Sequence record: LT603033
Reading direction: 5' to 3' (one strand)
DNA length: 64,000 nt
From: Escherichia phage vB_Eco_slurp01
A program made the position numbers and the translations under genes. Each line of letters begins with the position of its first letter. Position 1 is the stretch's first letter. Of this stretch, positions 35,741-55,706 are shown one piece after another. The notes under the pieces are model-generated. The model did no database searches. It had not been told where the DNA came from and saw nothing but the letters and a program-made list of their open reading frames with translations.

Positions 35741-35769
35741 TATTGAAAATAAATGTGAGGTTGATGAAC

Positions 35770-38219: not shown

Positions 38220-38431
38220 AGGAAATATCAAATCAAGAGTACTTGGCACTATTCAGGAAGAATAATCACAAATATATGGCACTTGATTCAAGAACTGATA
38301 TAAGTGAACTTGAAAAAAATCTTTTGCGTTCAGAGATGATAGTACTGACACTCTTAGGAACACAGCATCAAGAGAGAACTGTTAATTCACACATAGGGAT
38401 TCTTATGCAGATAGTTCAGGAAAAGATATGA
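38216..38431 (+). CDS. Family B small protein
   Basis: ORF track; LGTQHQERTV. Confidence 0.6.
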   Translation: MKEISNQEYLALFRKNNHKYMALDSRTDISELEKNLLRSEMIVLTLLGTQHQERTVNSHIGILMQIVQEKI

Positions 38432-38649
38432 GAATCATAACACAACAAGATATTCTTAAGTTCACAAGGGTTCATGCATCTGAATTTGATGCTATATTAT
38501 CAAAAAGTTACAACAACCCTTATACACAAGATGTACATTACAGTGAATTATGGATGTATATACTTTTAGGTACAAATAAGCAAGAGCAAGCCGTACAGAA
38601 GTATTTGACAGCTTTACGTGATGCTACTGCTAATGGAGTATGTGTTTAA
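38428..38649 (+). CDS. Family B small protein
   Basis: ORF track; LGTNKQEQAV. Confidence 0.6.
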   Translation: MRIITQQDILKFTRVHASEFDAILSKSYNNPYTQDVHYSELWMYILLGTNKQEQAVQKYLTALRDATANGVCV

Positions 38650-38650
38650 T

Positions 38651-38893
38651 ATGAAAGTACTGACAGAACTAGAAATGTATCATAGATTTAATAAGTACTA
38701 TCATTTACTTAAGCCTATACAGAGGATTAAATGTCCATTTGAAGAGAAACAGGTTTTAATCTATGAGCACAAGTTCTTTGTATCATTAGGTACAGATCAA
38801 CAAGAGTACTATTTGACGTTGTACTTGATTACATTAATAGATTTAATTCACTATAAAACCAAACAAGCTAATAAAGAGAAATATGAAAACTAA
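38651..38893 (+). CDS. Family B small protein
   Basis: ORF 38618..38893 trimmed; LGTDQQEYYL. Confidence 0.55.
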   Translation: MKVLTELEMYHRFNKYYHLLKPIQRIKCPFEEKQVLIYEHKFFVSLGTDQQEYYLTLYLITLIDLIHYKTKQANKEKYEN

Positions 38894-39227
38894 TATACAA
38901 CTCAAGGTATATAAATCATTTGAACATACATATATCAAAAGTAGTCTATGTAGAGATGTAATGGATTACAAGGGTAAGCCATTCACAATTACCTATGATT
39001 CTTATGTTAGTGATTTATATATATCATTTGTTAATTACGAAAATAAAATATACAAGCACGTTGATATTAAAGATTTAAGTACTTTATCACCAGAGGAATA
39101 CTTTCAGGAATCATTAGTATGGGATTTAGAGTTTCCTATGCCATTAGTACATAAGATGATAGTACTAATGAAAGAATCTAAACAGGAGCCTAATGGTGAT
39201 TATGAAGAACACACAGTTGAGTACTGA
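38883..39227 (+). CDS. Family C protein (E-E-x-[YF]-F-Q-x-S-L-V motif)
   Basis: ORF track; SPEEYFQESLVWD. Confidence 0.65.
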   Translation: MKTNIQLKVYKSFEHTYIKSSLCRDVMDYKGKPFTITYDSYVSDLYISFVNYENKIYKHVDIKDLSTLSPEEYFQESLVWDLEFPMPLVHKMIVLMKESKQEPNGDYEEHTVEY

Positions 39228-39588
39228 TAATATTAAGAGTTATACAAGCTCAAGTACTGTGACAATCGAAGTGAATTCTATTAATGCTGGTAATGCAGTA
39301 GATAAGTTCTTTATTGCTCAAGGGTACAGGAAAGATATTCATCAATATTGTTCAGTATATGGGGAGTACAATAGTACTGAAGATATAATTTATTGGTCAA
39401 CACATCAAGATTATCTAACTAAAATTGGCGTTCCAGATGTTAGTACTTTATCTGAAGAAGAATACTTTCAGTACAGCTTAGTACATGATGTACCTATACC
39501 TTTAGGGTTAATCAAGGGTATACAGGAAGAGGTTCATAAGCTTAAATCCATGAGTAAAGGTACTTTCATTAGAACAGTGCAATACTAG
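39193..39588 (+). CDS. Family C protein
   Basis: ORF track; SEEEYFQYSLVHD; start 39193 or 39202. Confidence 0.6.
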   Translation: MVIMKNTQLSTDNIKSYTSSSTVTIEVNSINAGNAVDKFFIAQGYRKDIHQYCSVYGEYNSTEDIIYWSTHQDYLTKIGVPDVSTLSEEEYFQYSLVHDVPIPLGLIKGIQEEVHKLKSMSKGTFIRTVQY

Positions 39589-39589
39589 C

Positions 39590-39618
39590 TTGACAGTACT
39601 TTTCATTACTGATATAGT
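39590..39618 (+). promoter_or_regulatory. Internal promoter within family C array
   Basis: TTGACA N17 TATAGT. Confidence 0.55.
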
Positions 39619-39649
39619 ACCTGTACGTTAATCATTAGGGTAGAAAATT

Positions 39650-39895
39650 ATGTTAAATTTTTTAAATTTCCTTATCGTCTTGTGTATTGTTCTTGGGATT
39701 GCACCATTTGTATTATATTTCATGGATTCAGATGAAATGCAGAAGATGAATTGCACAAGGACAGGACAGAGTAGAGTAGAGACGATTCTTATGCCTGTTA
39801 CGGTTATTGTTAACAACATGCCCATTACGAACATGGTCCCTACCCTAACGACAACGTACCAGTACTCTTGTGCTGACGGAGAGAGGTGGAGATGA
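39650..39895 (+). CDS. Small putative membrane/secreted protein (81 aa)
   Basis: ORF track; hydrophobic N-terminus MLNFLNFLIVLCIVLGIAPFVLYF; own promoter. Confidence 0.6.
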   Translation: MLNFLNFLIVLCIVLGIAPFVLYFMDSDEMQKMNCTRTGQSRVETILMPVTVIVNNMPITNMVPTLTTTYQYSCADGERWR

Positions 39896-40203
39896 AATTT
39901 AATATAGCAAAAACATCTAATATATGTATATTTGGTTATGCCGAAGAGTTGGGTGATATTGACATTCTTTTGTACAAAAAGGATGGTGTTATGCATTTCA
40001 AGTACCAGGATGAAGAGGCAGACAATTATCTTTTACCTAATTTAGTACAAATGCAGGAAGATGAATTATTCCAGTACAGCTTAGTATACGACATTGATAT
40101 TTGCACGATGCCAGTACTAATTAGTATTCAAAAAGTGATGCTCGATATGTATGATAAGCTAATACAAGGTATGTCAGGGAGGATCATTGAAATTGACATA
40201 TAA
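39886..40203 (+). CDS. Family C protein
   Basis: ORF track; EDELFQYSLVYD. Confidence 0.65.
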   Translation: MEMKFNIAKTSNICIFGYAEELGDIDILLYKKDGVMHFKYQDEEADNYLLPNLVQMQEDELFQYSLVYDIDICTMPVLISIQKVMLDMYDKLIQGMSGRIIEIDI

Positions 40204-40399
40204 GAATATACCTAATGCATATGAAATGAAGTACAGGGAGTTTATTAAAAATGTACACACCGATCCTTTTAATATCAAAATATCAGATTTTGATGTATTA
40301 TTTTATCTAGGGACAATAGCACAGGATCAATGCGTTGATAAGCTCATATGGTCCTTGAAAATGGAGATACAATGCAGACCCAAATATATAAAAAGGTAG
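40187..40399 (+). CDS. Family B-like small protein inside family C array (TTG start)
   Basis: ORF track; GGGAGG RBS 4 nt before TTG; YLGTIAQDQCV. Confidence 0.45.
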   Translation: MKLTYKNIPNAYEMKYREFIKNVHTDPFNIKISDFDVLFYLGTIAQDQCVDKLIWSLKMEIQCRPKYIKR

Positions 40400-40635
40400 A
40401 TTCTTTATTGTACGCTTCAAAGTACAGGGATTTTTGTTTACGAGGGGGAGAGGAAGATTTCTCTCTGAGATTATCTGAATTTAATATGTTATTTTATCTT
40501 GGTACAAAAGATCAAGAAGATACAGTACAGAAATTTATCAAGCACCTTGAACAAAAAATTCATATGCAAATTTTTATGCTTAAGGTACATAATGAGATAA
40601 ACAAATATGAACCCAACAATAGTACAGGATCTTAA
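40372..40635 (+). CDS. Family B-like small protein inside family C array
   Basis: ORF 40348..40635 trimmed; YLGTKDQEDTV. Confidence 0.5.
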   Translation: MQTQIYKKVDSLLYASKYRDFCLRGGEEDFSLRLSEFNMLFYLGTKDQEDTVQKFIKHLEQKIHMQIFMLKVHNEINKYEPNNSTGS

Positions 40636-41141: not shown

Positions 41142-41345
41142 ATGCAAAAGATTAATACGATAACATTAAATGCATTACAGGATTCATTATTAGATAGTAT
41201 TAAGATGTATTACAATATACATTTGAAGGGTGGTATTGATAATTACGATTATTATTTGAGTTTAATTACATTTGAGCACCTTTCAGTACAGGACAGGATT
41301 TTACATCCTACAAATCCTAGGTATCCATCGATAGGTAAATTATGA
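41142..41345 (+). CDS. Hypothetical small protein in family C array
   Basis: ORF track. Confidence 0.5.
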   Translation: MQKINTITLNALQDSLLDSIKMYYNIHLKGGIDNYDYYLSLITFEHLSVQDRILHPTNPRYPSIGKL

Positions 41346-41890
41346 ATGAGATAGAGTTATTAGCACACAAGATAAGTACAATAATGCTTATCCTCAATAA
41401 CAACCATCCTATATCGCATATAGATGGAATCCTGAGTCAGAGGACAGGTGGTAGTTTATATTTGTCCATAAACGCAGATATCGCAAGGAAATACATTGAT
41501 ATTGATGTTGAAATCGAATATGATACAACGGGGATTGTTGATGTAGGTGCATTAATCAGTTCAAATCCAGTATCAGCATCCCCATTGACCAAAGATGTTA
41601 GTACAGGATTCGAAGGATATTTGTGGTACAATACCAATGATGATTATTTTATATATCAGCATTCCAATACAAATTATGATGAAGACAAATTTCAGTTCAT
41701 AGACCCTTATGATGAAGCTGAAGTATTTCAAAAATCATTAATCACAAAACCGCATGAGATGATGTATCTAATGTTATTCAGTACAATGCATTTGAATCCA
41801 TTAATTAAAGGTTTAAAATTTTATATTCAATTAAATTTAGTCCATGTAGTTTATGATTTATTAATGCAAGGATATAGTTATGAAGTATAA
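41342..41890 (+). CDS. Family C protein
   Basis: ORF track; DEAEVFQKSLI; N-terminus MNEIELLAHKIST shared with 41962. Confidence 0.65.
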   Translation: MNEIELLAHKISTIMLILNNNHPISHIDGILSQRTGGSLYLSINADIARKYIDIDVEIEYDTTGIVDVGALISSNPVSASPLTKDVSTGFEGYLWYNTNDDYFIYQHSNTNYDEDKFQFIDPYDEAEVFQKSLITKPHEMMYLMLFSTMHLNPLIKGLKFYIQLNLVHVVYDLLMQGYSYEV

Positions 41891-41961
41891 AATGATGTAT
41901 ACCCCAAGATATGATTTATGTTGAATTAGAAGATGATGCATCCATCAATAGGTAATAATAT
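41869..41961 (+). pseudogene. Frameshifted remnant of the start of a 42458-type gene
   Basis: ATGAAGTATAAAATGATGTATACCCCAAGATATGA... matches 42458 start with one extra A. Confidence 0.5.
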
Positions 41962-42468
41962 ATGAATGAGATAGAATTATTAGCACACAAGATTAGTACA
42001 GTAATGCTTATGCTCAAGAATAATCATTCTATGCATAAGTACATTTATATAGGTGATTTACGCATAGAAGATAGATATGATAAATTATCGTTTTTGTTTA
42101 AAGATGAAAGTAATGCAAAAGTTTGTTTTGCAGCATTTGCCCAAGGCAATCCAGAACAAGCATCTCCTGTTATATACGAAAATAGTGAAGGGTATTTGTG
42201 GGTCAACACAAACGATTATTTCTTTTATGATTTGAAACAAAATGATGAAGTAGAAGCACGAATTGATTTAATTGATATTAGTTCAGATTGTAGTTCTGAA
42301 TTATTTCAGAAATCGTTATTATACAGTCCTCGTCAAATACATTATCTAAAGTTATTCAGTTCATTGTACGCGAATCCTTTAATTAAGGGTTTTAAATTTT
42401 ATATCAAAATTCCGTACCTTTCAAACGTTTATGATATTTTGATGCAAGGATATAGTTATGAAGTATAA
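41962..42468 (+). CDS. Family C protein
   Basis: ORF track; SSELFQKSLLY. Confidence 0.65.
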   Translation: MNEIELLAHKISTVMLMLKNNHSMHKYIYIGDLRIEDRYDKLSFLFKDESNAKVCFAAFAQGNPEQASPVIYENSEGYLWVNTNDYFFYDLKQNDEVEARIDLIDISSDCSSELFQKSLLYSPRQIHYLKLFSSLYANPLIKGFKFYIKIPYLSNVYDILMQGYSYEV

Positions 42469-42769
42469 AATGATGTATACCCCAGATATGATTTATGTTG
42501 AATTAGAAGATGATGACGATGGGTGGAATTTGATTTATTCAAGAAGTTCAGGTTGGTACATGGCACATTTAAATGATTCGATAGTTACAGATTATTTTGT
42601 AGATTTCAATACATTATCCGATGAAGAATTGTTCCAACAGCAATTAGTGATTGACACGGGTGGTTATGATGTCTTATTATTAAAAAAGATACAGAAAGCT
42701 GTTATTGATTTTAAGCCCATGATATGGCAAAGGAAATATTATGACCTCGAAGTACCGTACCAGCAATGA
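42458..42769 (+). CDS. Family C protein
   Basis: ORF track; DEELFQQQLVID. Confidence 0.65.
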   Translation: MKYKMMYTPDMIYVELEDDDDGWNLIYSRSSGWYMAHLNDSIVTDYFVDFNTLSDEELFQQQLVIDTGGYDVLLLKKIQKAVIDFKPMIWQRKYYDLEVPYQQ

Positions 42770-43307
42770 AATTCAGTACACCTACGCTAATGCAATCCTT
42801 ATGGGACAAAAGTTAGCTTGTATTGTTGCAGCCTTATATAATGCACAGAAATATCACAAGCGTCATTTCCACAAATGTATTGGTATTATTCCATCGAAGT
42901 ACAATACATATATTGCGTGCACGAGTCATTTTGATAAACGATTCAATACACCTGATACCCCAAATTCCCGTAGTGTTATTGGTCTTTTGGATTTCGCACC
43001 TGGTGCTGTTATTGGAAAGAATGATTTAGAGTACGCATGGTATAATAAAAATGCCCCGTTAGTAATGGTAAAATATGATACAGAAACGAACAAAACAATA
43101 GAGTACAATACATATAAATCAGAGGAAGAATTTTTCCAAGGTTCATTGCTTGTGCCAGTGCGTTTGTTGTTTTATAATGTCCTTATTAGTACAGTACACA
43201 ATAGTCCATTACACAAGAATCACAAAATTAATTTCAATTTTTGTGCTTATGCAATTGATGGTGTGTATGAGTGTTTAATGGAGGTATTGAGTTATGAAGC
43301 TGAATAA
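42741..43307 (+). CDS. Family C protein
   Basis: ORF track; EEEFFQGSLLV. Confidence 0.65.
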   Translation: MTSKYRTSNEIQYTYANAILMGQKLACIVAALYNAQKYHKRHFHKCIGIIPSKYNTYIACTSHFDKRFNTPDTPNSRSVIGLLDFAPGAVIGKNDLEYAWYNKNAPLVMVKYDTETNKTIEYNTYKSEEEFFQGSLLVPVRLLFYNVLISTVHNSPLHKNHKINFNFCAYAIDGVYECLMEVLSYEAE

Positions 43308-43635
43308 TACATTTGATATTAATAAGTTAAGAGAATGGTTTTATAGTATTGAAATTGAAGCCATCCCGTATCATAGATATGAACAATATAATTTAACCAG
43401 TATTGATATCAGTGAGTTGTACGCGTATTATCAAAGTGCATTAGAGATGCATAAGTTATTTTTGAGTACAGATTTTGTTCTAAATTACAATTTTGAGGAA
43501 TTTAATAATTATAATTTAGTACAGAAATATGTAGTAGCAAAGTATATGTACCTTCAAGGAATTACAAGTAATTTGGAATTCAATACAGTCCTTGCTTTAG
43601 TTGAGGTAATTTTATGCAGTACATGTATGATTTAG
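43294..43635 (+). CDS. Family C-related protein (divergent motif)
   Basis: ORF track. Confidence 0.55.
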   Translation: MKLNNTFDINKLREWFYSIEIEAIPYHRYEQYNLTSIDISELYAYYQSALEMHKLFLSTDFVLNYNFEEFNNYNLVQKYVVAKYMYLQGITSNLEFNTVLALVEVILCSTCMI

Positions 43636-44120
43636 AGTTTAGTTTAGATGCTGCATTTAAATATGTTCACAAGATAGAAACAATATACAGTACATTATGT
43701 GCAATACAATCAGTATCATCTGAGTTTGATGTTGGTGAAAAATATCAGGTATGGAATAATACATTTCTAAACAAAGAACGTTGCTCTACGGGGTTTAATA
43801 TTTTAACATTTAATCCCAGCAATTGTTACCCAGAGAAGCATGAACGTTATCCGAATGACGACATGTGGTTTGATTACACAAAAGATGGTGATATGTCATC
43901 CCTTGTAGTTCCTGATGATTTTAATGCCGAAGATTTAACGGAAGAGTGGTGGTTTCAACAGAATTTAGTACACGATGATATTGATTTATTTTTTTATGTA
44001 GTATTTAAAATGCTTTACCACAACAATATATTAAAAGATAGTGTGTTTTTTTCATGTCTATATATTGATGATTTGTACAATGAAATCCAAATCAACATTC
44101 CCAGCACGCCTGTATCGTAA
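43614..44120 (+). CDS. Family C protein
   Basis: ORF track; EEWWFQQNLVHD. Confidence 0.65.
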   Translation: MQYMYDLEFSLDAAFKYVHKIETIYSTLCAIQSVSSEFDVGEKYQVWNNTFLNKERCSTGFNILTFNPSNCYPEKHERYPNDDMWFDYTKDGDMSSLVVPDDFNAEDLTEEWWFQQNLVHDDIDLFFYVVFKMLYHNNILKDSVFFSCLYIDDLYNEIQINIPSTPVS

Positions 44121-44145
44121 GATATGGGCTTTTTTCGTTTTGGTA

Positions 44146-44174
44146 TTGACAAAGAAGTGCAAAGCTGTTATCAT
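44146..44174 (+). promoter_or_regulatory. Internal promoter within family C array
   Basis: TTGACA N17 TATCAT. Confidence 0.55.
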
Positions 44175-44202
44175 GTGTAATCATTTTAAAGGAGAACATA
44201 TA

Positions 44203-44715
44203 GTGAGTTTCATAATCCCAAGTACATACGAAGATGCATCAAGTGCAGTTCATAAGATTCATTATATTTTTAATTTAATTATTAGATCTGCAAAAAATAA
44301 AATGTATGCACCTCTTGTGGAATACGATAAAAATGAGGAAATTTTTGTTAGCACAGACCAAATTATTTTTCCATATTTCAATGAAGATAGATTGTGGTTC
44401 ATGCATTTAGCTGCATTACAAAAATATAAAATGTCAATTCGTAATAATTTGGATATACCGTTATATCATCCTGATATTGGAGAGGATGAATATTTTCAGT
44501 ACAGTACAGTACACCGCCATGAAGATATCTTTGTTGCTATGCTTATTGCTAAATTGAATACCGTTGATTTGGAGCAGTACAAATACAATAATAAATCATG
44601 TAAGATCATAATCCCTGCATTCATAGCTCTTTATGATTATGTGGTGCATAACAAAAAAGATGATACATATGCTTTCAATGAAGAGTATTTGAATTTTTTT
44701 AAGGAGAACATATGA
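44203..44715 (+). CDS. Family C protein (GTG start)
   Basis: ORF 44041..44715 trimmed to GTG after AAAGGAGA RBS; EDEYFQYSTVH. Confidence 0.55.
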   Translation: MSFIIPSTYEDASSAVHKIHYIFNLIIRSAKNKMYAPLVEYDKNEEIFVSTDQIIFPYFNEDRLWFMHLAALQKYKMSIRNNLDIPLYHPDIGEDEYFQYSTVHRHEDIFVAMLIAKLNTVDLEQYKYNNKSCKIIIPAFIALYDYVVHNKKDDTYAFNEEYLNFFKENI

Positions 44716-45239
44716 GCAGTGACGTGCAGAAATCAATGACATTCAATGAAATTGGTGCATTTAAAGATAAGATCATTGATTGTCTTGAATACATGATTTG
44801 TAGTAATATCGAAAGTATCGAGATATTTAACAAGACAAATCGCTCTTACCATATGATGTACATTGCAAACAATAATGGTATCATTCCATTTATTTCGGAT
44901 AGTACAATATGGTACGCATGTGATACGAAAAAAACCACAATAGGTTTACATTTATTTGAGACACATTATGATCTAATTATTCCTGAACATTGTATGCAAG
45001 AAGAAGAATATTTTCAAATGCAATGTATACATTCACCATTAGTGTTGTTTAGTTTATATATTATACCTTATATCACCAAATGTGTTCATGAGAATAAAGC
45101 TCCGTGGAATCATGAATTTGTATCGTTGAAGTTATTGTATAATGTATTAGTAGAATATTATGATTACAGGCACAATGGTACAATCAGTGATGTATGGGAT
45201 TTTGAATCGCTAAGGGTGAAAACATACACAGGTGAATGA
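44712..45239 (+). CDS. Family C protein
   Basis: ORF track; QEEEYFQMQCIH. Confidence 0.65.
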   Translation: MSSDVQKSMTFNEIGAFKDKIIDCLEYMICSNIESIEIFNKTNRSYHMMYIANNNGIIPFISDSTIWYACDTKKTTIGLHLFETHYDLIIPEHCMQEEEYFQMQCIHSPLVLFSLYIIPYITKCVHENKAPWNHEFVSLKLLYNVLVEYYDYRHNGTISDVWDFESLRVKTYTGE

Positions 45240-45240
45240 T

Positions 45241-45855
45241 ATGACCAGAATTAAAATGTATGATTTGATGCAGTACAGTAAAATTGCCATTCCGGTGCTT
45301 AATAAAGTGCTGGATGCATTCATTGCCAAATACCCTGAGAATTCAGTGTTATGTATTCCATTTAGTGTTCCAGATAAAGATGATATATTTCAAGTGAATG
45401 TCAGTACACGTGGTATTACATTGCAGCAGAAATACATGGATACGGAATATTATGGAATAAAGTTGGATTCAGTACAGGGTTCTAAATCAGCCTATGATTT
45501 TTTTGTTCCTAATAACATCGAGTCATGGGAAACAAACATTTCAAAGAAAGATGAAAATGATGTTCCTATTAGTGGTGTGTTCAACAATAAAGTTTTTTAT
45601 TATTACGAAACCGACAAATTCCCTGAAGAGTTATATTACAATTCAGAAATGAATGAAGATGTAGATGCATTCATGTTTCAATTATCTTTAGTACATGATA
45701 TCATTGATGTTCAAGAGTTAAGAGCAGAAATCAATTTAGCTAAAGAGTTATCGGACATGCTGCCACCGTTTAGTATGCTTTTTTGTGAAGGTGGTTATTT
45801 TTCAAAAGAAGTGTTTGAACATTTCGTAGATGTTGTAAAAGGGTTGGATATATAG
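45241..45855 (+). CDS. Family C protein
   Basis: ORF 45232..45855 (GTG) trimmed to ATG after AGGTGA; FMFQLSLVHD. Confidence 0.6.
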   Translation: MTRIKMYDLMQYSKIAIPVLNKVLDAFIAKYPENSVLCIPFSVPDKDDIFQVNVSTRGITLQQKYMDTEYYGIKLDSVQGSKSAYDFFVPNNIESWETNISKKDENDVPISGVFNNKVFYYYETDKFPEELYYNSEMNEDVDAFMFQLSLVHDIIDVQELRAEINLAKELSDMLPPFSMLFCEGGYFSKEVFEHFVDVVKGLDI

Positions 45856-45856
45856 T

Positions 45857-46051
45857 ATGCTTACAGTTGATGTTAAACAAAAATACCGTAAGTTTGATTG
45901 GTTCACCGATAGTTTCCAGCTTGAATTATTACATATGAATATCAGTGAAACATTATGTGCAGAAACACAAGATGAATTTGATGATAGAGTGATGAACATA
46001 GTAATGCTTTCTTGCTTTAAACATTTTGGTTATTTTTTCGGACAGAATTGA
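45857..46051 (+). CDS. Hypothetical small protein in family C array
   Basis: ORF track. Confidence 0.5.
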   Translation: MLTVDVKQKYRKFDWFTDSFQLELLHMNISETLCAETQDEFDDRVMNIVMLSCFKHFGYFFGQN

Positions 46052-46059
46052 GGTAAAAA

Positions 46060-46575
46060 ATGCATCAACACAAGCATCATTCATATGATTTTGCAATTAA
46101 CATTATGAAGTTCATTCGAGCGTTGGAGGATGGGAAGCTTAGTCATAAGTACAGGAAAGAGGGTAACAATTGGTTCAGAAATGATTCCGAGTTCAGTTGT
46201 CATAAAATCGTGTATAGTAATCAGTACAGTGCCAATTACCTACAAGATGTAGTGATGTGTTTTGAATACGTGTTGCAGTTCAGGGGTTCAATCCAAGATG
46301 AGTTGATGGAGAACATGTACATCAGATACCTTCCAATGCTCAAAGATGAAAATGTATTATTAAATTCAATATACCAACGAGTTCGTGAAATTGAGTGCAG
46401 GGATATATTAGATACAGAAGAATCGTATTTCCAGCAATCCCTGATTTATTCACCTGATTTATTACAGGTACATAATTTGTTTAATACATTACGTCAGAAC
46501 ATCAGTACAGACATATTTTTGTCATTATCGGATTATGATACATTTGTCAAAGATTTAGAGGAAATAGGATTATGA
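46060..46575 (+). CDS. Family C protein
   Basis: ORF track; EESYFQQSLIY. Confidence 0.65.
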   Translation: MHQHKHHSYDFAINIMKFIRALEDGKLSHKYRKEGNNWFRNDSEFSCHKIVYSNQYSANYLQDVVMCFEYVLQFRGSIQDELMENMYIRYLPMLKDENVLLNSIYQRVREIECRDILDTEESYFQQSLIYSPDLLQVHNLFNTLRQNISTDIFLSLSDYDTFVKDLEEIGL

Positions 46576-46916
46576 GTAGATTTTCAGTTTATATAGTAAA
46601 CGTCAGTAAAGATGGTAGTTTAATTGAATTTGATGTAGTTGATAACAATGATAATTCATATGGTATTAAGGTACAGGACAATGTAGTGCAGTTCAGTACA
46701 AGGACAAATTTTGAGAATCCAGTCCAAGTTCCGAATTTCATAGAAGATGAAGCTGCACGATTCCAATACGAAACGGCCTTTGATAATATGCATATGCATA
46801 TTATTATGCAACAAAGTTTAGTTCAATTGCTTCAGGTATTCAGACAAAATATATATGTACATGAAGTGTCGATTAATGGCATTCAAAGTTCCGTATTGTT
46901 CGGTACAAATATGTAA
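46572..46916 (+). CDS. Family C-related protein
   Basis: ORF track; EAARFQYETAFD. Confidence 0.6.
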   Translation: MSRFSVYIVNVSKDGSLIEFDVVDNNDNSYGIKVQDNVVQFSTRTNFENPVQVPNFIEDEAARFQYETAFDNMHMHIIMQQSLVQLLQVFRQNIYVHEVSINGIQSSVLFGTNM

Positions 46917-46926
46917 GGAAAGTACA

Positions 46927-47478
46927 ATGAGTTCAATGAGTTTATTAGATACATTAGAAAAAGACAGAAGTGCAATTAAGCGTTTAAAAGAGCAAGTACA
47001 AAAGATTGTATACAACGTTGATAAGTTTGAAGTCCCAGGAAGATTTGGTGATATTTCCCATACGGAGATCAAATCCCTTAAGTCAGATTTGTTGATTAAA
47101 AATAAAAATGGGTTGATTTTAGTTTTGAGTTCAGATATGATGGGGGCAACACATAGTTATAATGCAGTATCGGTGCGTTCAGAGTGTGAAGGTATATATC
47201 TATCACAGGGTTTCAATAGCGAGACACAGGTTTGTTTTTGTGATGCAGTACATGACCCTATGAAGTTCACGAGAAGTGAAGCCCAAGCGTTATTAGAGCT
47301 ATCAGACGAGAGTTTGTTTCAGTACAGTACAATGTATGACAATGATAAGCTTCGTTGTATGTACGCTGTAAAGCATTATACACAGGAGTTCTCTGGATTT
47401 GCATACCTTTTAGTTAGAACCAATACCAGATATATTGATATGTTAGAAGATTACATCGATAAAGTTGTTAATGTATGA
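46927..47478 (+). CDS. Family C protein
   Basis: ORF 46855..47478 trimmed to MSSMSLL after AAGGAAAG; DESLFQYSTMYD. Confidence 0.6.
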   Translation: MSSMSLLDTLEKDRSAIKRLKEQVQKIVYNVDKFEVPGRFGDISHTEIKSLKSDLLIKNKNGLILVLSSDMMGATHSYNAVSVRSECEGIYLSQGFNSETQVCFCDAVHDPMKFTRSEAQALLELSDESLFQYSTMYDNDKLRCMYAVKHYTQEFSGFAYLLVRTNTRYIDMLEDYIDKVVNV

Positions 47479-47653
47479 TTATGTGATGGGATAATGCTGA
47501 TGAAAGAGTTATTTGAAGATCAGTTCAATACATATGTGGATAATATTCTTTATTCCAGCCGTGCTAGTCAACGAGGAAATCGTGCTTACAATATAGATTA
47601 CCTATTAGTGGTGCTGAGTTCACAGTACACCAATGCGGTACAAAGGGTTTATT

Positions 47654-47863
47654 ATGAAAAGTGCAAGTAATAGTGATATTGCAAAGGAGAAGTTGGAGTG
47701 CAGTTTAGATTACGGTTTAAATGATTTTCTTACATGCACAATGTACAGGAATGATGATTATGAGCAATCCGTAATTTCGTTGCACAGATATTTCGAAATA
47801 ATTTACGCAAGATATCTTAGAAGGTTAGAGGGAATAGGGGATTGGAATTATGATTACGTTTGA
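47654..47863 (+). CDS. Hypothetical small protein (start uncertain)
   Basis: ORF 47633..47863; competing 57-aa ORF at 47495..47668. Confidence 0.4.
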   Translation: MKSASNSDIAKEKLECSLDYGLNDFLTCTMYRNDDYEQSVISLHRYFEIIYARYLRRLEGIGDWNYDYV

Positions 47864-48074
47864 AGAGCCGGAAGTGGTATATTGCTATAGTGTGAAAGGT
47901 TTTGAATACATGATGGATTCTATTTTGAAGGATACATATTTGGTTCAGATTGCAGTTGCAGATAATACAGATAATGCATTACAGCGAGTATTGAATATAT
48001 ACGAGAAGACGAGTCGAAGGCTTTGTGCAATGAAAAGGATTGAAGAAATCAAGCTTTCTAGGCTGAATAAATAG
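47850..48074 (+). CDS. Hypothetical small protein (74 aa)
   Basis: ORF track. Confidence 0.55.
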   Translation: MITFEEPEVVYCYSVKGFEYMMDSILKDTYLVQIAVADNTDNALQRVLNIYEKTSRRLCAMKRIEEIKLSRLNK

Positions 48075-48276
48075 AGACGTTTCATTTTGACAGGCCGCAG
48101 GGGGTCAAAAAAATTTCCGCTGAAAAACATGCTAAGGTATATGTTTAATATAAAGTTTTATATTGTGTTTTTCAGAGTACAGTTCATGTTTCCTGAAACA
48201 AAAAATACCCCGCCCCCGCAACGTGCTCCTTATATTGGAGTTTACCTTATTAATTACAGTAGAGATTACAATTGAA
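48075..48276. other. Non-coding island inside family C array with atypical GC-rich tracts
   Basis: CCCCGCCCCCGC and GGCCGCAGGGGG; TTGAC/GTCAA and GTTTC/GAAAC hairpins. Confidence 0.5.
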
Positions 48277-48660
48277 ATGAAGATGCAAATAAAATATAAT
48301 GAATTTTGTGCAAGGACATGGATGTACACTGGTGAGTTAGTTACGCACTGTAACTTATACAAGGGTGATTTAAACTACGCCAGGGACAAGATTTTAAAGT
48401 ACTGGAATGCTGACTTTTATTTGATGGATTTTAGTACTGGGTTTCATGGGATATCTATCGAGATGCCGGACTATACAGTACTTGATGATGCTGCACTGTT
48501 TCAGGAGGCATTAGTATTTGATAAGAAGTACATCTGTACATTAGAAGAGATGATTGAATTACAGCGTAGAATTAAATGTATTCACAGGGAATGTATAGAT
48601 ATCTGGTGCAGTACTGGTGAGGCCGATTTATGGAAATTTTTTAATCTAGGAGAAGAGTGA
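48277..48660 (+). CDS. Family C protein
   Basis: ORF 48163..48660 trimmed to MKMQIKY; DAALFQEALVFD. Confidence 0.6.
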   Translation: MKMQIKYNEFCARTWMYTGELVTHCNLYKGDLNYARDKILKYWNADFYLMDFSTGFHGISIEMPDYTVLDDAALFQEALVFDKKYICTLEEMIELQRRIKCIHRECIDIWCSTGEADLWKFFNLGEE

Positions 48661-48821
48661 TGGAATTTGATTTTTTAATATCAGTACATTCTTTTAAGCA
48701 CAGTTATCAGTACTTTTGTAATTTAAACAAAGGTGATTTGATTATGGATACAGATACAGAGGCTGTATACAGTTCTAATATTCTGTACAAATTCAGTACT
48801 AATCTGAAGGAGATTTTATGA
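48660..48821 (+). pseudogene. Truncated N-terminal copy (53 codons) of the 49186 paralog
   Basis: First ~85 nt near-identical to 49186 start, then diverges to early stop. Confidence 0.5.
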
Positions 48822-49186
48822 AAAAAGAAATTAGAATTCAATTCGGTATGAGGAAAAAAGAGGTCATCTGTACACTGAATCATGCGGACGTGGAAATGGG
48901 TGGTGCATTACAAAAATTCTCACATTTTGTTCTTGTACTATATGAAAATGGGTCTTTTAAAATCTTCACATATGATGATTCAAAAAATTACCGTAATGAT
49001 TTTGTAAATCTTACAGTACTGTCAGAAGAGGAATTCTTTCAGGAAAGTACTGTCTGGAATTTACCAGGAGCACCAATTGAATACGTCCGTGCTACACAGG
49101 TAGAGATGATCAAAACAATGCAGAACTATCCAGAAGATTATATGACTAAGTTTCCTGAATCTTTTAATGTAGAGGTTGAGTACTGA
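48818..49186 (+). CDS. Family C protein
   Basis: ORF track; SEEEFFQESTVWN. Confidence 0.65.
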   Translation: MKKEIRIQFGMRKKEVICTLNHADVEMGGALQKFSHFVLVLYENGSFKIFTYDDSKNYRNDFVNLTVLSEEEFFQESTVWNLPGAPIEYVRATQVEMIKTMQNYPEDYMTKFPESFNVEVEY

Positions 49187-49542
49187 TGGAATTTGATTTT
49201 TTAATATCAGTACATACTTTCAAGCACAGTTATCAGTACTTTTGTAATTTAAACAAAGGTGATTTAATGCACAGTGCGAATGAGTATATTCATTACACTC
49301 AGGGTAAATTTACATTCATTGATTACAGTTCATTACAGTATCCACACCAAGATATGCCGGACTATACATTAATGGATACCGCAGAACTATTCCAAGAATC
49401 ATTAGTATTTGATAAGAAGTACTTGTGTACATTTGAAGAAGTTATTGCAATACAAAATGAAATGAAAGAGTATGCTGCTTTGCATAAACCCAATGCAAGT
49501 ATTAATCAAGAATACAAATTCAATTTAGGAATTCAAGAATGA
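49186..49542 (+). CDS. Family C protein
   Basis: ORF track; TAELFQESLVFD. Confidence 0.65.
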   Translation: MEFDFLISVHTFKHSYQYFCNLNKGDLMHSANEYIHYTQGKFTFIDYSSLQYPHQDMPDYTLMDTAELFQESLVFDKKYLCTFEEVIAIQNEMKEYAALHKPNASINQEYKFNLGIQE

Positions 49543-49907: not shown

Positions 49908-50402
49908 ATGACATTACAGAGTTCATTGGAAAAAGCAAAGAAGATTCATGAGTACATGAATATGGCAAAAGAAGGTTCAGTTTACGGTGTTTTCAAAGAC
50001 ACAAGTACTCAATATTATGTGCCGGATAACCTCCTTTATAATGACTGCTCAGATACAGAAACGTGCGTACTGGATACAGAAACATGCATACTAGATACCG
50101 ACCCTAATGATTATGAATGTTTCATTGATATGCATAATGAGTACATGGTCTATATTAATGATGCAGATATTACCATATACAGTACTGACAGCGATTCCGA
50201 TGACATTATAATTCCGAGTGAAGTACTAGAAGGTCAGTGGGATAGTGAAGAGTATTACTTCCAACAAAGTACTGTTTACGATGATGAAGTACTTGATGTT
50301 ATTATAATTATGTGGTACTTTAAAAGTATTGGTTCTGGGAACTTCTATTTCGATTACAAATACGTAAAGAAAACAGTAGATAACGGTATTAACAGGGGTT
50401 GA
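49908..50402 (+). CDS. Family C protein (MSLQS subgroup)
   Basis: ORF track; SEEYYFQQSTVYDDEVLDVIIIMWYFKSI. Confidence 0.7.
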   Translation: MTLQSSLEKAKKIHEYMNMAKEGSVYGVFKDTSTQYYVPDNLLYNDCSDTETCVLDTETCILDTDPNDYECFIDMHNEYMVYINDADITIYSTDSDSDDIIIPSEVLEGQWDSEEYYFQQSTVYDDEVLDVIIIMWYFKSIGSGNFYFDYKYVKKTVDNGINRG

Positions 50403-50403
50403 A

Positions 50404-50874
50404 ATGAGTTTAGAAAGAGCATTAGAGATTGCGAAGTTAATTGATTTATGCAGCAAAGAAATTGTAGCAAATTGTCTCAATGGATATCTATTCAAGGAAG
50501 GTAAATCTTATTGTCGAATGAGATACGATGACAGTAGTGAGTACATTCACATGTACGATGAAAACTTAGATTCTTCTGAAACAACACTCAATGGGTGTGA
50601 TGTTAATTTGGAAGATAATTACATGTACTTCTGTCGTGATGCTGATATTTTAATACAAGATTCTGACATTCTAACTGGTGGTGAAGAGAAACATCTTCCG
50701 TATTCAGTACTGGATAATAACTGGGGTAGTGAAGATTACTATTTCCAGCAGAGTACTATATATAATGAAGATATACTTGACAAACTTGTTATTTCTTGGT
50801 ACTTTCATAACACGGATTATAGTAGCTTCTACATAGACTTGGATCTACTAAGAGTACTTAAAGAGGATATATGA
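50404..50874 (+). CDS. Family C protein (MSLE subgroup)
   Basis: ORF track; SEDYYFQQSTIYN. Confidence 0.7.
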   Translation: MSLERALEIAKLIDLCSKEIVANCLNGYLFKEGKSYCRMRYDDSSEYIHMYDENLDSSETTLNGCDVNLEDNYMYFCRDADILIQDSDILTGGEEKHLPYSVLDNNWGSEDYYFQQSTIYNEDILDKLVISWYFHNTDYSSFYIDLDLLRVLKEDI

Positions 50875-51311
50875 GTTTAGAAAAAGCACTAGAACTAGCC
50901 AACAAAATACATCAGTACCATGATAAAATAAAAAGTGGGTTCTATGCTGATAAAGTACATGCATATGGGAATGAATATTACCTCACTGGAGTAAAGAGAT
51001 ACTCTAATGATATTTTACTTATGGGTCATGATAAAGACAATAATATACAGTACTCTTCATGTAGTCAATATACTAGTTTTATGGTATATATTCCTGGTAC
51101 TAAGATTACTTTTGACACATCAAATACACCTGTTGACTTCGGAGTACTTGATGGCCCGTGGGGTACTGAAGAGTATTACTTCCAACAGAGTCTCATTTTT
51201 AACCAAGAAATGCTTGATTCCTTGGTTGTGTTGTGGTACTTTAAGGAATTGAATTTTGAACCATTCTTTCTTGACTGGGGATCATGTGAGTATTTAATTT
51301 CAGGGGAATAA
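50871..51311 (+). CDS. Family C protein (MSLE subgroup)
   Basis: ORF track; TEEYYFQQSLIFN. Confidence 0.7.
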   Translation: MSLEKALELANKIHQYHDKIKSGFYADKVHAYGNEYYLTGVKRYSNDILLMGHDKDNNIQYSSCSQYTSFMVYIPGTKITFDTSNTPVDFGVLDGPWGTEEYYFQQSLIFNQEMLDSLVVLWYFKELNFEPFFLDWGSCEYLISGE

Positions 51312-51313
51312 TA

Positions 51314-51802
51314 ATGTCATTACAAAGTGCGTTGAAAGAAGCAAAGAAGATTCATGAGTACATGATTATGGTACAGGAAGGTTCAGTACCAGGTGTATAC
51401 AAAACATCAGATACGGAATTCTTCGTTAAGGATAGAGATGATTATGACGATTCAGAGGTATGTGCAGAAACATTAGTACTGCACACTGATACTGGTGACA
51501 GTGATAACTGTGAATATCATATGTACAACCAGTACATTAGTTATTGCCGTAATGAAGATATTACCATCTACAACACAGATAGTGATGCTGATGACACTAT
51601 CATTCCTTATTCAGTACTGGAAGGTCAGTGGGATAGTGAAGAATATTACTTCCAGAATAGTACTATCTACAATGAAGAAGAACTGGATGTTATTGTGATT
51701 ATGTGGTATTTCAAAAGTATTGACTCCAGTAGTTTCTATTTTGATTATGAATATGTAGAGAATACAGTAGGAGAAGGTAATGTCATTACAAAGTGCTCTT
51801 GA
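51314..51802 (+). CDS. Family C protein (MSLQS subgroup)
   Basis: ORF track; SEEYYFQNSTIYN. Confidence 0.7.
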   Translation: MSLQSALKEAKKIHEYMIMVQEGSVPGVYKTSDTEFFVKDRDDYDDSEVCAETLVLHTDTGDSDNCEYHMYNQYISYCRNEDITIYNTDSDADDTIIPYSVLEGQWDSEEYYFQNSTIYNEEELDVIVIMWYFKSIDSSSFYFDYEYVENTVGEGNVITKCS

Positions 51803-52232
51803 AAAAGCAAAAGAACTACATGGATACTTTGAAGATATAAAGGCCGGAAAGTTCAAAGAAGTGTACAAAGCCGAGAACGGTAACTACTACAAAGATGAAA
51901 TGTATAATAACTCCGTTGGTGTAAGGGTTATTCTTGGGTTGAATTCCAATAGTCCTATATCGTTTTCTGAATACAATAGAGATGCAGAATTTATTAGTTA
52001 TGTTGAAAATGGTAGCATTCGTTTTATTAATAGACAAAAACCATTAATTTTGAATTATGAAGTACTGGATGGTCAGTGGGATAGTGAAGAGTATTACTTC
52101 CAAAACAGTACTGTATATGATGATGAAGTACTTGAAGCATTAGTTATTATGTGGTACTTCAAGAGTATTAGCTTCCCTCGATTTTATTTGGATTTCGAAG
52201 ATCTTCGTAAAGATCCAGAAGGTATAGAATGA
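51780..52232 (+). CDS. Family C protein (MSLQS subgroup)
   Basis: ORF track; SEEYYFQNSTVYD. Confidence 0.7.
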   Translation: MSLQSALEKAKELHGYFEDIKAGKFKEVYKAENGNYYKDEMYNNSVGVRVILGLNSNSPISFSEYNRDAEFISYVENGSIRFINRQKPLILNYEVLDGQWDSEEYYFQNSTVYDDEVLEALVIMWYFKSISFPRFYLDFEDLRKDPEGIE

Positions 52233-54195: not shown

Positions 54196-54745
54196 TTTAG
54201 ATATTGCGTTTGAACGTATGGTAATTTTAATGCAATGTGCAGAAATGCATGAAACAATCCGTCGCACCAAAGGGATTGAATATACAAGTAAACTATTCTC
54301 ATACGAAAGTCGTCGAGGGATGGATCATTTTTACTGCACTGATTGTTCAAAGTTTTCAGTACTGAAATATTATCATCCTACTGTTTCCAATAATAGTTTA
54401 ATATCCACATATGACGGTGATCTGTTTAGTGTAATGTATGACACATTACATCCATCAATTTCAATCTATAAAGATTGCGATAGTAGTTTATCGTATATAA
54501 TTGAAGATTACTTATCTCCTAATACTGAAGAGAATATTTTTCAGAACAGTGTGTTGCATGATGAATTAAGTATAAAATGCATCTATATGTTCAATAAGTT
54601 AAAAGAGTACGCCGATAATAATTACTTAATTGATAAGTTAGCAGTATTGTCTGTTTCCGTTTTTAATACAAATGACATTGATATGAAATACTATAATGAG
54701 ATTTGTAAAGTACATCATATGTATAAGGAATTACTATGTTATTAA
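54185..54745 (+). CDS. Family C protein
   Basis: ORF track; EENIFQNSVLHD. Confidence 0.65.
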   Translation: MYDDLDIAFERMVILMQCAEMHETIRRTKGIEYTSKLFSYESRRGMDHFYCTDCSKFSVLKYYHPTVSNNSLISTYDGDLFSVMYDTLHPSISIYKDCDSSLSYIIEDYLSPNTEENIFQNSVLHDELSIKCIYMFNKLKEYADNNYLIDKLAVLSVSVFNTNDIDMKYYNEICKVHHMYKELLCY

Positions 54746-55338
54746 ATGCAAATAAATGTTGTAGTGCAGATGTGCATTTGTTTTTTAAGAAATTAGCAAA
54801 TGATATTATATATATGCAGGAAATGATTTATCACAAACGAGCGGATTTAGAAAAAGCATTAGTACAGTTCTCATTTATGCTTGATGGTGATATATTTCTA
54901 GAGAGTGATGCATTGCGAATAGTATTAGACAAAAATGCTAAAAGATTTTTATTTCATATAGATAATAAATTATGTTCCTCCGTATGTCGTACTTTTTATA
55001 ATCGTGATTCGGACTTATATCAATTCCTTTATTCTAAAGGTGCAGTAGAAGCATCATATGGTGATGGTTATGCCCTAGGAAAGAGTATTCCATTTATGAA
55101 ATCATTTAAAATAGAACACATCAGTACTGATGAAGATGCAATGTTCACAAATGATATAACTATGGGACGTGAAGATGCAATGCGATATATTACAAATTCT
55201 ATGCATACATTCTTTCAACGAACAGAATTTGATAATGTATATATATCAAATGTAAATATTTTCAATGACCTGTGTCAGTACTTGAGAAGTGTTTGTGATT
55301 TTGATGAAAGCTATTGTAAGCTTTATACTGAGGTATAA
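54736..55338 (+). CDS. Family C-related protein (divergent)
   Basis: ORF track. Confidence 0.55.
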   Translation: MLLNANKCCSADVHLFFKKLANDIIYMQEMIYHKRADLEKALVQFSFMLDGDIFLESDALRIVLDKNAKRFLFHIDNKLCSSVCRTFYNRDSDLYQFLYSKGAVEASYGDGYALGKSIPFMKSFKIEHISTDEDAMFTNDITMGREDAMRYITNSMHTFFQRTEFDNVYISNVNIFNDLCQYLRSVCDFDESYCKLYTEV

Positions 55339-55343
55339 AACAA

Positions 55344-55706
55344 ATGAACACATTAAGTATTACATACTATACAACTAAAAAATTAGTTACTTGTTTAATA
55401 TCATTGAAGACAAACCATGATGATATGTTTGATATGGCTGCATATGAATTAGAATTATCAGAAGATGGCTTCAAGAGCTATGAAGTATATAGCTATGTTC
55501 GTGAAGATGTAATTGACACTACACTAATGCAAGAGGATGAGTTATTCCAAGAAAGTTTAGTATGGGATAATAAGTACGATTGTAACTTTGATTTCTTATG
55601 TTTAATCCAGAAAGAAATGAAAAGAATCTTTGATAATTATCCAGTGAAGAGATTGAGTACTGGACCGGAGCAGTACAGGAGAATTTTATTCCGTTATGAA
55701 GACTGA
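55344..55706 (+). CDS. Family C protein
   Basis: ORF track; EDELFQESLVWD. Confidence 0.65.
   Translation: MNTLSITYYTTKKLVTCLISLKTNHDDMFDMAAYELELSEDGFKSYEVYSYVREDVIDTTLMQEDELFQESLVWDNKYDCNFDFLCLIQKEMKRIFDNYPVKRLSTGPEQYRRILFRYED

What the first reader, a model, noticed from the sequence alone, without database searches (positions are those of the whole stretch)
41869..49270. Fresh duplications and decayed fragments inside the family C array
41869-41961 repeats the first ~70 nt of the 42458 gene but with one extra A (CCCCAAGATATGA versus CCCCAGATATGA), giving an immediate frameshift. 48660-48821 repeats ~85 nt of the 49186 gene start and then terminates after 53 codons. The starts of 41342 and 41962 (ATGAATGAGATAGAGTTATTAGCACACAAGAT) and of 49908, 51314 and 51780 (ATGTCATTACAAAGTGC) are near-identical while the bodies differ. 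These are signatures of recent unequal recombination, with gene birth and death in progress.
Basis: seen in the sequence. Interest (0 to 1): 0.5.

Follow-up and report, generated by a model that had tools for sequence, protein, structure and literature searches.

The report
Recombination scars in jumbo-phage gene array
Two short gene fragments in a jumbo E. coli phage are real, but they are scars left when divergent gene versions from related phages were spliced in beside resident genes, not fresh duplications; this is ordinary phage mosaic evolution, seen here at unusually fine resolution.

Summary
The window comes from an Asteriusvirus (121Q/PBECO4/G17-like jumbo coliphage). Both fragments exist as described.

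- **B' (41880-41938)** matches the start of gene B (42458) at 73/73 bases, plus one inserted A.
- **C' (48660-48821)** shares 83/87 bases with the start of gene C (49186).

Neither marks a fresh in-place duplication.

- The flanking genes A1 (41342) and A2 (41962) are about 43-48% identical in protein and near saturation at synonymous sites. They occur singly in other phages: A1 only in PBECO4 and G17, A2 only in A4. A2 is 96-100% identical to the copy in a clade whose flanks are only 61-85% identical.
- C' is an in-frame chimera. It joins 85 nt of C to the 3' end of a gene Z, which in phage A4 precedes E at the locus equivalent to window 55 kb. The joints sit at 5-7 nt microhomologies.

Among related genomes, 14 of 32 records carry A2 and 12 carry the E cassette. 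All four presence/absence combinations occur. One metagenomic contig carries a D::C hybrid gene made by unequal crossover.

Gene gain and loss by recombination is therefore supported. "Fresh duplication" is not. The proteins form an uncharacterised superfamily sharing an EE-FFQ-S motif. This is a well-resolved example of a known kind of process.

The parts
41342..41890 (+). Gene A1 (182 aa), the resident allele of the A locus. Its last 11 nt overlap the start of B'.
   Evidence: ORF list. 99-100% identical to the single A gene of G17, PBECO4 and SD-15_S21. PHROG 19795, unknown function.
41880..41938 (+). B': remnant of the first 58 nt of gene B, with one inserted A at 41906/41907. The residual ORF 41880-41924 is 14 codons.
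   Evidence: 73/73 identity plus a 1-nt insertion against 42442-42515. The same +1 A is shared by BF17, ECO103, TH47 and ELP-22. An in-frame 26-codon version occurs in WPEC3, EC.P1, fEgEco12 and Turkey3.
41939..41961 (+). Junction and leader of the A2 cassette. It copies the last ~18 nt of the gene upstream of A1 (41323-41341, TATCCATC-ATAGGTAA), followed by TAATAT.
   Evidence: Alignment of sequences upstream of A. The 3' part, ATAGGTAATAATATATG, is identical to the leader of the lone A2-type gene of phage A4.
41962..42468 (+). Gene A2 (168 aa), a second and highly divergent allele of the A locus stacked in tandem.
   Evidence: 43-48% aa identity to A1 and 81% to the sole A gene of A4. 96-100% nt identity to WPEC3 and EC.P1, whose flanks are 61-85%. 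Absent from 18 of 32 records.
42458..42769 (+). Gene B (103 aa), intact. Its 5' end is the source of B'.
   Evidence: PHROG 33987.
48277..48660 (+). Gene D (127 aa). It is the upstream neighbour of C in phages without the cassette.
   Evidence: D runs directly into C in PBECO4, UE-S1, EC.P1, WPEC3, fEgEco12, SD-15_S21 and ELP-22.
48660..48821 (+). C': chimeric 53-codon ORF. 48660-48742 is the 5' 83 nt of C. 48743-48821 is the 3' end of a Z-type gene, shortened by a 63-nt in-frame deletion.
   Evidence: The 121Q version (74 aa) aligns to the last ~140 nt of A4_364 (Z) with local score 231. The window, G17, BF17 and CRJP21 lack 63 nt between the direct repeats TAAT[GA]TTCTGT[GA]CAA.
48818..49186 (+). 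Gene E (122 aa), an ectopic copy of an A4-type allele of the 55-kb locus.
   Evidence: 92% aa identity to A4_365 but only 28-29% to the window's own positional counterpart g55344. The cassette is found in 12 records, including the distant-clade phage Turkey3 at 97%.
49186..49542 (+). Gene C (118 aa), intact. Its first 83 nt are repeated in C'.
   Evidence: AF2 model pLDDT 85.
48658..48742 (+). Left copy of the 85-nt direct repeat. The right copy is 49184-49268, spaced 526 nt away. Recombination between the two would excise C'-tail plus E.
   Evidence: The empty-site phages correspond exactly to loss of one repeat unit.
41849..41938 (+). Left copy of the ~90-nt direct repeat (A 3' end plus B 5' end). 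The right copy is 42427-42515, spaced 577/578 nt away.
   Evidence: Single-copy phages equal the window minus one unit.
49908..52232 (+). Paralogues 49908, 50404, 50871, 51314 and 51780 (146-164 aa), which share a conserved N-terminal helix MSLxxALExAxxI.
   Evidence: Protein alignment. The starts use different codons in 50404 and 50871. Synonymous difference per site is 0.30 at the start against 0.65-0.85 in the middle for 49908/51314.
54736..55706 (+). 'Home' locus: g54736 (Z-like, 200 aa) and g55344 (E-like, 120 aa). These are the positional orthologues of A4_364 and A4_365.
   Evidence: Collinearity of A4_339-375 with window 40.6-58.8 kb.

Best explanation
Both fragments are recombination scars in a hyper-variable early-gene array of an Asteriusvirus jumbo phage.

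**Event 1.** A divergent allele of gene A (A2) was placed in tandem after the resident allele A1. This happened by an unequal joint between position ~58-67 of gene B in one genome and ~20 nt upstream of the A start in another. The joint left the 5' stub of B (B') between the two alleles. B' has since picked up a +1 frameshift.

**Event 2.** A segment made of the 3' end of gene Z plus gene E was inserted into gene C. The segment came from an A4-like allele of the locus that lies at 55 kb in this window. The left joint is at GATTT, 83-85 nt into C. The right joint is at TGATGGA, the stop/start overlap ahead of C. The result duplicates the first 85 nt of C and creates the in-frame chimeric ORF C'. 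A 63-nt deletion between 15-nt repeats shortened C' later.

**After the events.** Once formed, each cassette is flanked by 85-90 nt direct repeats and by conserved paralogue ends. It can therefore be lost by repeat recombination, or passed between co-infecting relatives by homologous recombination. This produces the patchy distribution seen.

**Shown and inferred.** Shown here: the structures, the junction sequences, the donor-like alleles in A4, the presence/absence polymorphism and the mosaic identity pattern. Inferred: that the joints arose by template switching or illegitimate crossover during co-infection, and the order of events.
For: - **Source.** Region 41-50 kb is 94-97.5% identical to Asteriusvirus genomes.
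- **Single-copy phages.** G17, PBECO4 and SD-15_S21 carry A1 at 99-100% identity joined directly to intact B.
- **A2 as an allele.** A4 carries only an A2-type gene, with the same ATAGGTAATAATAT leader.
- **A2 as a transferred patch.** Window A2 is 96-100% identical to WPEC3 and EC.P1 while the flanks are 61-85%.
- **Age mismatch.** A1 and A2 differ at 0.56-0.94 of synonymous sites in the middle. Yet B' is 58/58 identical to the window's B allele, and the other B' type is 60/64 to the A4 B allele, with the first 52 nt identical.
- **C' tail.** It matches the 3' end of A4_364.
- **E.** It is 92% identical to A4_365, whose neighbours are collinear with window g54736-g55696.
- **Junction microhomologies.** GATTT and TGATGGA.
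- **Cassette distribution.** 14/32 and 12 records, all four combinations, including cross-clade carriers Turkey3 and TH47.
- **Mosaic.** Identity switches between 100% and ~60% in blocks of a few hundred nt.
- **Independent crossover product.** A D::C hybrid gene in a metagenomic contig.
- **No mobile-element features.** No terminal inverted repeats and no Pfam-recognisable endonuclease or transposase.
Against: - The A1-B'-A2-B layout is exactly what a simple tandem duplication would give. An ancient duplication followed by divergence, differential loss and gene conversion of B' cannot be formally excluded.
- The hypothetical parents were not found among the genomes searched. These are a genome with g41142 directly upstream of an A2-type gene, and a genome with Z-E followed by C.
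- The direction of cross-clade transfer is inferred from short junction sequences only.
- No experimental data on recombination or expression exist for these phages in the literature searched.
Confidence: 0.72

Rival explanations
1. First reader's view. These are recent in-genome tandem duplications by unequal crossing-over between sister genomes, followed by rapid divergence of the bodies and decay of the junction fragments.
For: - The duplication-like geometry: unit = ~20 nt upstream + A + 58-67 nt of B, with start-to-start spacing of 578/620 nt.
- Lower synonymous divergence at gene ends (0.23-0.36) than in the middles.
- Unequal crossover does occur in this array, as the D::C hybrid shows.
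Against: - A1 and A2 are near saturation at synonymous sites.
- Each type exists alone in other phages.
- A2 is near-identical across clades with divergent flanks.
- The B' stubs match extant B alleles almost perfectly, so they are much younger than the A1/A2 split.
Confidence: 0.15
2. The fragments are functional small genes or translational-coupling leaders kept by selection, not scars. For example, C' would be a 53-aa protein, or an ORF kept open to deliver ribosomes to E.
For: - The C' ORF is open in all carriers examined.
- The 63-nt deletion is in frame.
- Its start overlaps the D stop (GTGATGG) and its stop overlaps the E start (ATGA).
- It is annotated as a CDS in G17, BF17, CRJP21 and 121Q.
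Against: - The carriers are 97-98.5% identical over the cassette, so an intact ORF is expected by chance.
- An in-frame deletion has a 1 in 3 prior probability.
- C' lacks the conserved EE-FFQ-S core of the family.
- B' clearly has no conserved frame: 14 codons after the +1 A, 26 codons in the other type, and a 12-nt duplication in BF17.
- Many phages do without either fragment.
Confidence: 0.1
3. The structures are assembly or sequencing artefacts caused by collapsed or mis-joined repeats.
For: Repeats in paralogue arrays can mislead short-read assemblers. ECO103 4-12-1 and EC22.5-2 are unverified records.
Against: - The repeats are only 85-90 nt long.
- Identical junctions, including the +1 A, recur in at least five independently sequenced phages from Poland, Turkey, the USA and Bangladesh.
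- The C' junction recurs in G17, 121Q, CRJP21, BF17 and Turkey3.
Confidence: 0.02

Closest known systems
Hyperplastic regions of T4-type phages, with modular shuffling mediated by PeSL cassettes (Arbiol et al. 2010, PMC2839356; Comeau et al. 2014, PMC4122927)
   Same: - Blocks of small, non-essential, mostly unknown early ORFs.
- Insertions, deletions and replacements that distinguish very close relatives.
- Recombination between short repeated sequences as the driver.
   Different: - The repeats here are coding 5'/3' ends of paralogous genes and 5-7 nt microhomologies inside ORFs, not promoter plus stem-loop cassettes.
- The genes overlap with no intergenic space at the junctions.
- No promoter- or terminator-like sites were found at either junction.
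General phage mosaicism by illegitimate recombination at or near gene boundaries followed by selection (Hendrix/Hatfull model; own knowledge)
   Same: - Sharp transitions in identity.
- Joints at very short homologies.
- Occasional left-over partial genes at module boundaries.
   Different: The exchanged modules here are alleles or paralogues of one superfamily within a single array. New joints therefore stack related genes in tandem instead of replacing them.
Expansion of prokaryotic protein families by horizontal transfer rather than duplication (Treangen and Rocha 2011, PLoS Genet; own knowledge, paper not retrieved)
   Same: The apparent paralogues (A1/A2; E/g55344) are best explained as captured foreign versions, not in-genome duplicates.
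   Different: The case here is documented at single-junction resolution inside a virus, with donor-like alleles identifiable in a sister phage.
Multigene-family arrays and 'genomic accordions' of large eukaryotic DNA viruses, such as poxvirus K3L amplification and ASFV MGF families (own knowledge)
   Same: Terminal or early-region arrays of related small genes that vary in copy number between isolates through recombination.
   Different: Accordions start from identical copies amplified under selection. No near-identical whole-gene copies exist here; only 58-85 nt stubs are near-identical.

Membership tests
Asteriusvirus (121Q/PBECO4-like jumbo coliphages) | High nucleotide identity and collinearity with reference genomes of the genus | tested here: met
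   41000-50000 matches 22 records over at least 80% of its length at 90-97.5% identity, including 121Q and PBECO4. Gene order is collinear with 121Q, G17, BF17 and A4.
Recent in-place tandem gene duplication | The two gene copies are near-identical along their whole length, including synonymous sites | tested here: not met
   A1 and A2 are 43-48% identical in protein, with synonymous differences of 0.56-0.94 per site in the central 100 codons. E has no window paralogue above 29%.
Recent in-place tandem gene duplication | A junction containing a partial copy of the flanking gene | tested here: met
   B' is present between A1 and A2, and C' ahead of E. This feature is shared with the heteroallelic unequal-recombination model, so it does not discriminate.
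Recent in-place tandem gene duplication | Duplicated material derives from the adjacent sequence of the same genome lineage | tested here: not met
   A2 matches the distant clade at 96-100%. The C' tail and E match the A4 alleles A4_364 and A4_365 of a locus 6.5 kb downstream.
PeSL-type modular shuffling (T4-like hyperplastic regions) | Cassettes bounded by conserved sigma70-like promoter plus stem-loop terminator motifs | tested here: not met
   No promoter- or terminator-like sites at 41.85-41.96 kb or 48.65-48.82/49.18 kb. Such sites occur only in the few intergenic gaps: 39590, 44108/44146 and 56572.
Transposon, homing-endonuclease or other autonomous mobile-element insertion | An encoded transposase or endonuclease, terminal inverted repeats, and a short target-site duplication | tested here: not met
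   The cassette genes have no Pfam domain. No terminal inverted repeats. The direct repeats are 85-90 nt of host-gene sequence, not 2-15 nt duplications.
Unequal homologous crossover between adjacent paralogues | A hybrid gene whose 5' part derives from one paralogue and 3' part from the next, with loss of the interval | tested here: met
   Met for a related metagenomic contig, not for the window itself. P0007 / L020 4001-4330 is D-like at the N-terminus (20/27 and 14/27 against 8/27 and 9/27 to C). It is C-like at the C-terminus (20/27 against 6/27). The crossover lies in the 104-nt conserved core.

The most novel reading that the evidence does not exclude
Jumbo-phage paralogue arrays may grow mainly by 'allele stacking'. 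Microhomology-mediated template switches during co-infection would place a relative's hyper-divergent allele next to the resident gene instead of replacing it. Many apparent paralogues would then be captured alleles. The array would act as a population-level store of variants of a fast-evolving early-protein superfamily (EE-FFQ-S motif, unassigned fold), possibly involved in host takeover or counter-defence.
Probability: 0.35. Interest if true: 0.55.

Novelty: new member of a known kind. Interest (0 to 1): 0.35.

Why it matters
The region gives a base-pair-resolved example of how accessory-gene arrays in jumbo phages gain and lose members. The scars, donor-like alleles, empty sites and a reciprocal hybrid gene are all recoverable from public genomes.

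It shows that genes which look like tandem paralogues can be captured alleles. This matters for annotation, for counting gene families and duplications in phage genomes, and for interpreting copy-number differences between therapeutic phage isolates.

It also defines two simple PCR-sized polymorphisms, of 578 nt and 526 nt, that could be used to measure recombination rates in Asteriusvirus co-infections.

It does not reveal a new molecular machine. The function of the protein superfamily remains unknown.

Tried and rejected
**Searches for function or known elements**
- Pfam gave no significant domain for ten array proteins. PHROGs gave only unknown-function families.
- Rfam found nothing in the window.
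- An RNA fold of the GC-rich gap 48075-48276 is no better than shuffles, z=-0.18.
- No terminal inverted repeats at the cassette ends.

**Tracing the C' tail**
- Searching for its origin among the window's own genes gave nothing above shuffled controls. The origin was only found through phage A4.
- blastx of the other intergenic gaps found no further gene remnants.

**Spurious or unproductive results**
- P0034, a 2131-aa hit in the profile search, is a repetitive adhesin-like protein and a spurious match.
- Programmed frameshifting at CCCCAAG was considered and rejected. The sequence is not an X XXY YYZ slippery heptamer. Even the corrected frame ends at the junction after about 20 codons.
- Literature searches found no description of these arrays or of their polymorphism. 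The first search was too broad to be useful.
- The Treangen and Rocha paper could not be retrieved.


Full report
**Source and setting.** Region 41000-50000 matches 35 phage records. It covers 22 of them over at least 80% of its length at 90-97.5% identity. All are jumbo coliphages or Salmonella phages of the genus Asteriusvirus, such as 121Q, PBECO4, G17, phAPEC6 and BF17. No record is identical. The exact A2 and C' proteins occur in BF17, vB_Eco_slurp01 and G17. From about 12 kb onward the window is a tightly packed plus-strand array of small overlapping genes. All-against-all BLASTP groups the genes of 32-64 kb into a few paralogue families. The three families touched by the finding share a central motif, EE-[FY]FQ-x-S-[LT]-[VI], so they form one superfamily. 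Sigma70-like promoters and a terminator occur only in the few intergenic gaps: 39590, 44108/44146 and 56572. This layout suggests several operons read by the host polymerase; that the genes are early is an inference.

**The observation.** All the described repeats are real and far beyond chance.
- 41864-41938 equals 42442-42515 at 73/73 bases with one inserted A at 41906/41907.
- 48658-48742 equals 49184-49268 at 96% over 85 nt.
- The first 71 nt of 41342 and 41962 are 63/71 identical, while their middles do not align as DNA.
- The 17-mer ATGTCATTACAAAGTGC is exact at 51314 and 51780. It is only 13/17 at 49908.

**Fragment 1 (B') and its relatives.** I call 41342 A1, 41962 A2 and 42458 B. Three states exist among relatives.
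- Six fetched relatives (G17, PBECO4, SD-15_S21, UE-S1, CRJP21, 121Q) have a single A1-type gene running straight into an intact B. That equals the window minus one 577/578-nt unit.
- BF17, ECO103 4-12-1, TH47 and ELP-22 have A1-B'-A2-B with the same +1 A. BF17 adds a 12-nt tandem duplication.
- A more distant clade (WPEC3, EC.P1, fEgEco12, Turkey3) also has A1-B'-A2-B. There B' is in frame and ends after 26 codons at the junction.

Across the phage collection, full-length A2 is present in 14 of 32 matching records.

**Why fragment 1 is not a fresh duplication.** Four points argue against it.
- A1 and A2 are 43-48% identical in protein, and synonymous differences in the middle reach 0.56-0.94 per site.
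- Window A2 is 96-100% identical to WPEC3 and EC.P1 A2, while the adjacent A1 and B are 61-85% identical.
- Phage A4 has only an A2-type gene (81% aa identity), preceded by the same leader ATAGGTAATAATAT.
- The B' stubs are almost identical to extant B alleles. The window type is 58/58 to the window's B. The other type is 60/64 to the A4 B allele, with the first 52 nt identical. The stubs are therefore far younger than the A1/A2 split.

The junction after B' copies the last ~18 nt of the gene upstream of A1, in its near-clade form. The simplest reading is an unequal joint between two genomes carrying different A alleles, followed by spread and loss through the conserved ends. An ancient duplication with later gene conversion cannot be fully excluded.

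**Fragment 2 (C').** I call 48277 D, 48818 E and 49186 C. Seven fetched relatives have D running directly into C. The cassette of C' tail plus E occurs in 12 records. These include the distant-clade phage Turkey3 at 97% identity.

- **Composition.** C' is not simply a truncated C. After the 83-85 shared nucleotides it continues in frame into sequence with no similarity to window genes. In 121Q the ORF is 74 codons. Its tail aligns to the last ~140 nt of A4_364, a 192-aa gene (Z) that directly precedes E (A4_365) in phage A4. The window, G17, BF17 and CRJP21 have a further 63-nt in-frame deletion between two 15-nt direct repeats.
- **Origin of E.** A4 is collinear with window 40.6-58.8 kb. A4_364-365-366 sit where the window has g54736-g55344-g55696. 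Yet A4_365 is 92% identical to E and only 28% to g55344. E is therefore an ectopic copy of a foreign allele of the 55-kb locus.
- **Joints.** The left joint is at GATTT (GGTGATTT|AATG in C against CAGGATTT|GATTATGG in Z). The right joint is at TGATGGA, which is shared by the E-stop/next-start and the D-stop/C-start overlaps.
- **Mobile-element check.** No inverted repeats or recognisable mobile-element genes are present.
- **Mechanism.** Two template switches or crossovers at these microhomologies would insert Z'-E and duplicate the first 85 nt of C. This mechanism is inferred, not shown.

**Population picture.** All four presence/absence combinations of the two cassettes occur.

| B'-A2 | C'-E | Examples |
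|---|---|---|
| present | present | window, BF17, ECO103, Turkey3 |
| present | absent | ELP-22, TH47, WPEC3 |
| absent | present | G17, 121Q, CRJP21 |
| absent | absent | PBECO4, UE-S1, SD-15_S21 |

A 100-nt sliding comparison shows identity switching between 100% and about 60% in blocks of a few hundred nucleotides against every relative. A metagenomic contig (Logan SRR27732228) carries a single D::C hybrid gene. Its crossover lies in the 104-nt conserved core shared by D and C. This is a direct product of unequal homologous recombination between adjacent paralogues.

**Near-identical gene starts.** Gene ends show lower synonymous divergence than the middles: 0.23-0.36 against 0.56-0.94. That fits partial exchange at the termini. 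The N-terminal helix of the 49908 family is also conserved with different codons in 50404 and 50871. Protein-level constraint therefore explains part of the similarity.

**Are the fragments functional?** B' has no conserved frame and is decaying. C' is open in all carriers and overlaps its neighbours' stop and start codons. But the carriers are 97-98.5% identical over the cassette, so an intact ORF carries no weight. C' also lacks the family's conserved core. A role in translational coupling to E remains possible and untested.

**Comparison with known systems.** The closest described system is modular shuffling in T4-type hyperplastic regions (PMC2839356). There the recombining repeats are promoter plus stem-loop cassettes, which are absent here. 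The case also fits the general illegitimate-recombination model of phage mosaicism. It further fits the principle that prokaryotic gene families often expand by transfer rather than duplication. Both of those comparisons rest on my own knowledge.

**Verdict.** It is wrong on 'fresh duplications'. This is a clear and well-resolved instance of a known evolutionary process, not a new kind of element.

Noticed in passing
[not shown]
   Followed up: partly
window 32286-40635 (plus 53808-54195): A separate family of 33 tandem genes of about 63-96 aa (PHROG 4148 for one member), with adjacent members such as 36236-36694 / 36456-36914 about 70% identical in DNA. This is a second large array that was not analysed for polymorphism.
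   Followed up: no
window 7957-12123, ORFs as called on the + strand: Another family of 12 small ORFs (59-77 aa). GC skew changes sign near 12 kb. This position corresponds roughly to the first base of records such as CRJP21 and ELP-22, so it may be a genome-end or terminal-repeat boundary.
   Followed up: no
L020 4001-4330 (Logan SRR27732228 contig; protein P0007): A single D::C hybrid gene replaces the D and C genes. The crossover lies inside the conserved 104-nt core (window 48460-48563 / 49351-49454).
   Followed up: yes
window 48075-48276: An unusually long (202 nt) non-coding gap, locally GC-rich (CCCCGCCCCCGC, GGCCGCAGGGGG), with a weak TTGACA-N16-AAAAAT promoter-like site. Its length varies among relatives, and UE-S1 lacks about 200 nt here. 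The RNA fold is not better than shuffles, and there is no Rfam hit.
   Followed up: partly
window 56572-56601 and 44108-44174: A perfect sigma70 consensus (TTGACA-18-TATAAT with an upstream TG) lies in the 59-nt gap before 56635. A terminator-like hairpin is followed immediately by an 11/12 promoter at 44108-44174. These are probable operon boundaries within the array.
   Followed up: no
L018 (phage A4) versus window 40.6-58.8 kb: Positional orthologues between A4 and the window are often only 23-57% identical in protein, for example A4_364/g54736 at 24% and A4_365/g55344 at 28%. Alleles at one locus are thus as divergent as paralogues. A4 and Turkey3 also carry an extra gene with a signal-peptide-like N-terminus (A4_341) upstream of the A locus.
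   Followed up: partly
window 50219-50330 versus 52058-52169: A 113-nt patch of 88% identity between 49908 and 51780, whose proteins are otherwise 39% identical. It covers the conserved core motif. It could be a gene-conversion tract or strong constraint.
   Followed up: partly
L003 (BF17) 2387-2410: BF17 carries a 12-nt tandem duplication (ATGAAGTATAAA twice) at the start of B'. This is a further lineage-specific lesion in the stub.
   Followed up: yes
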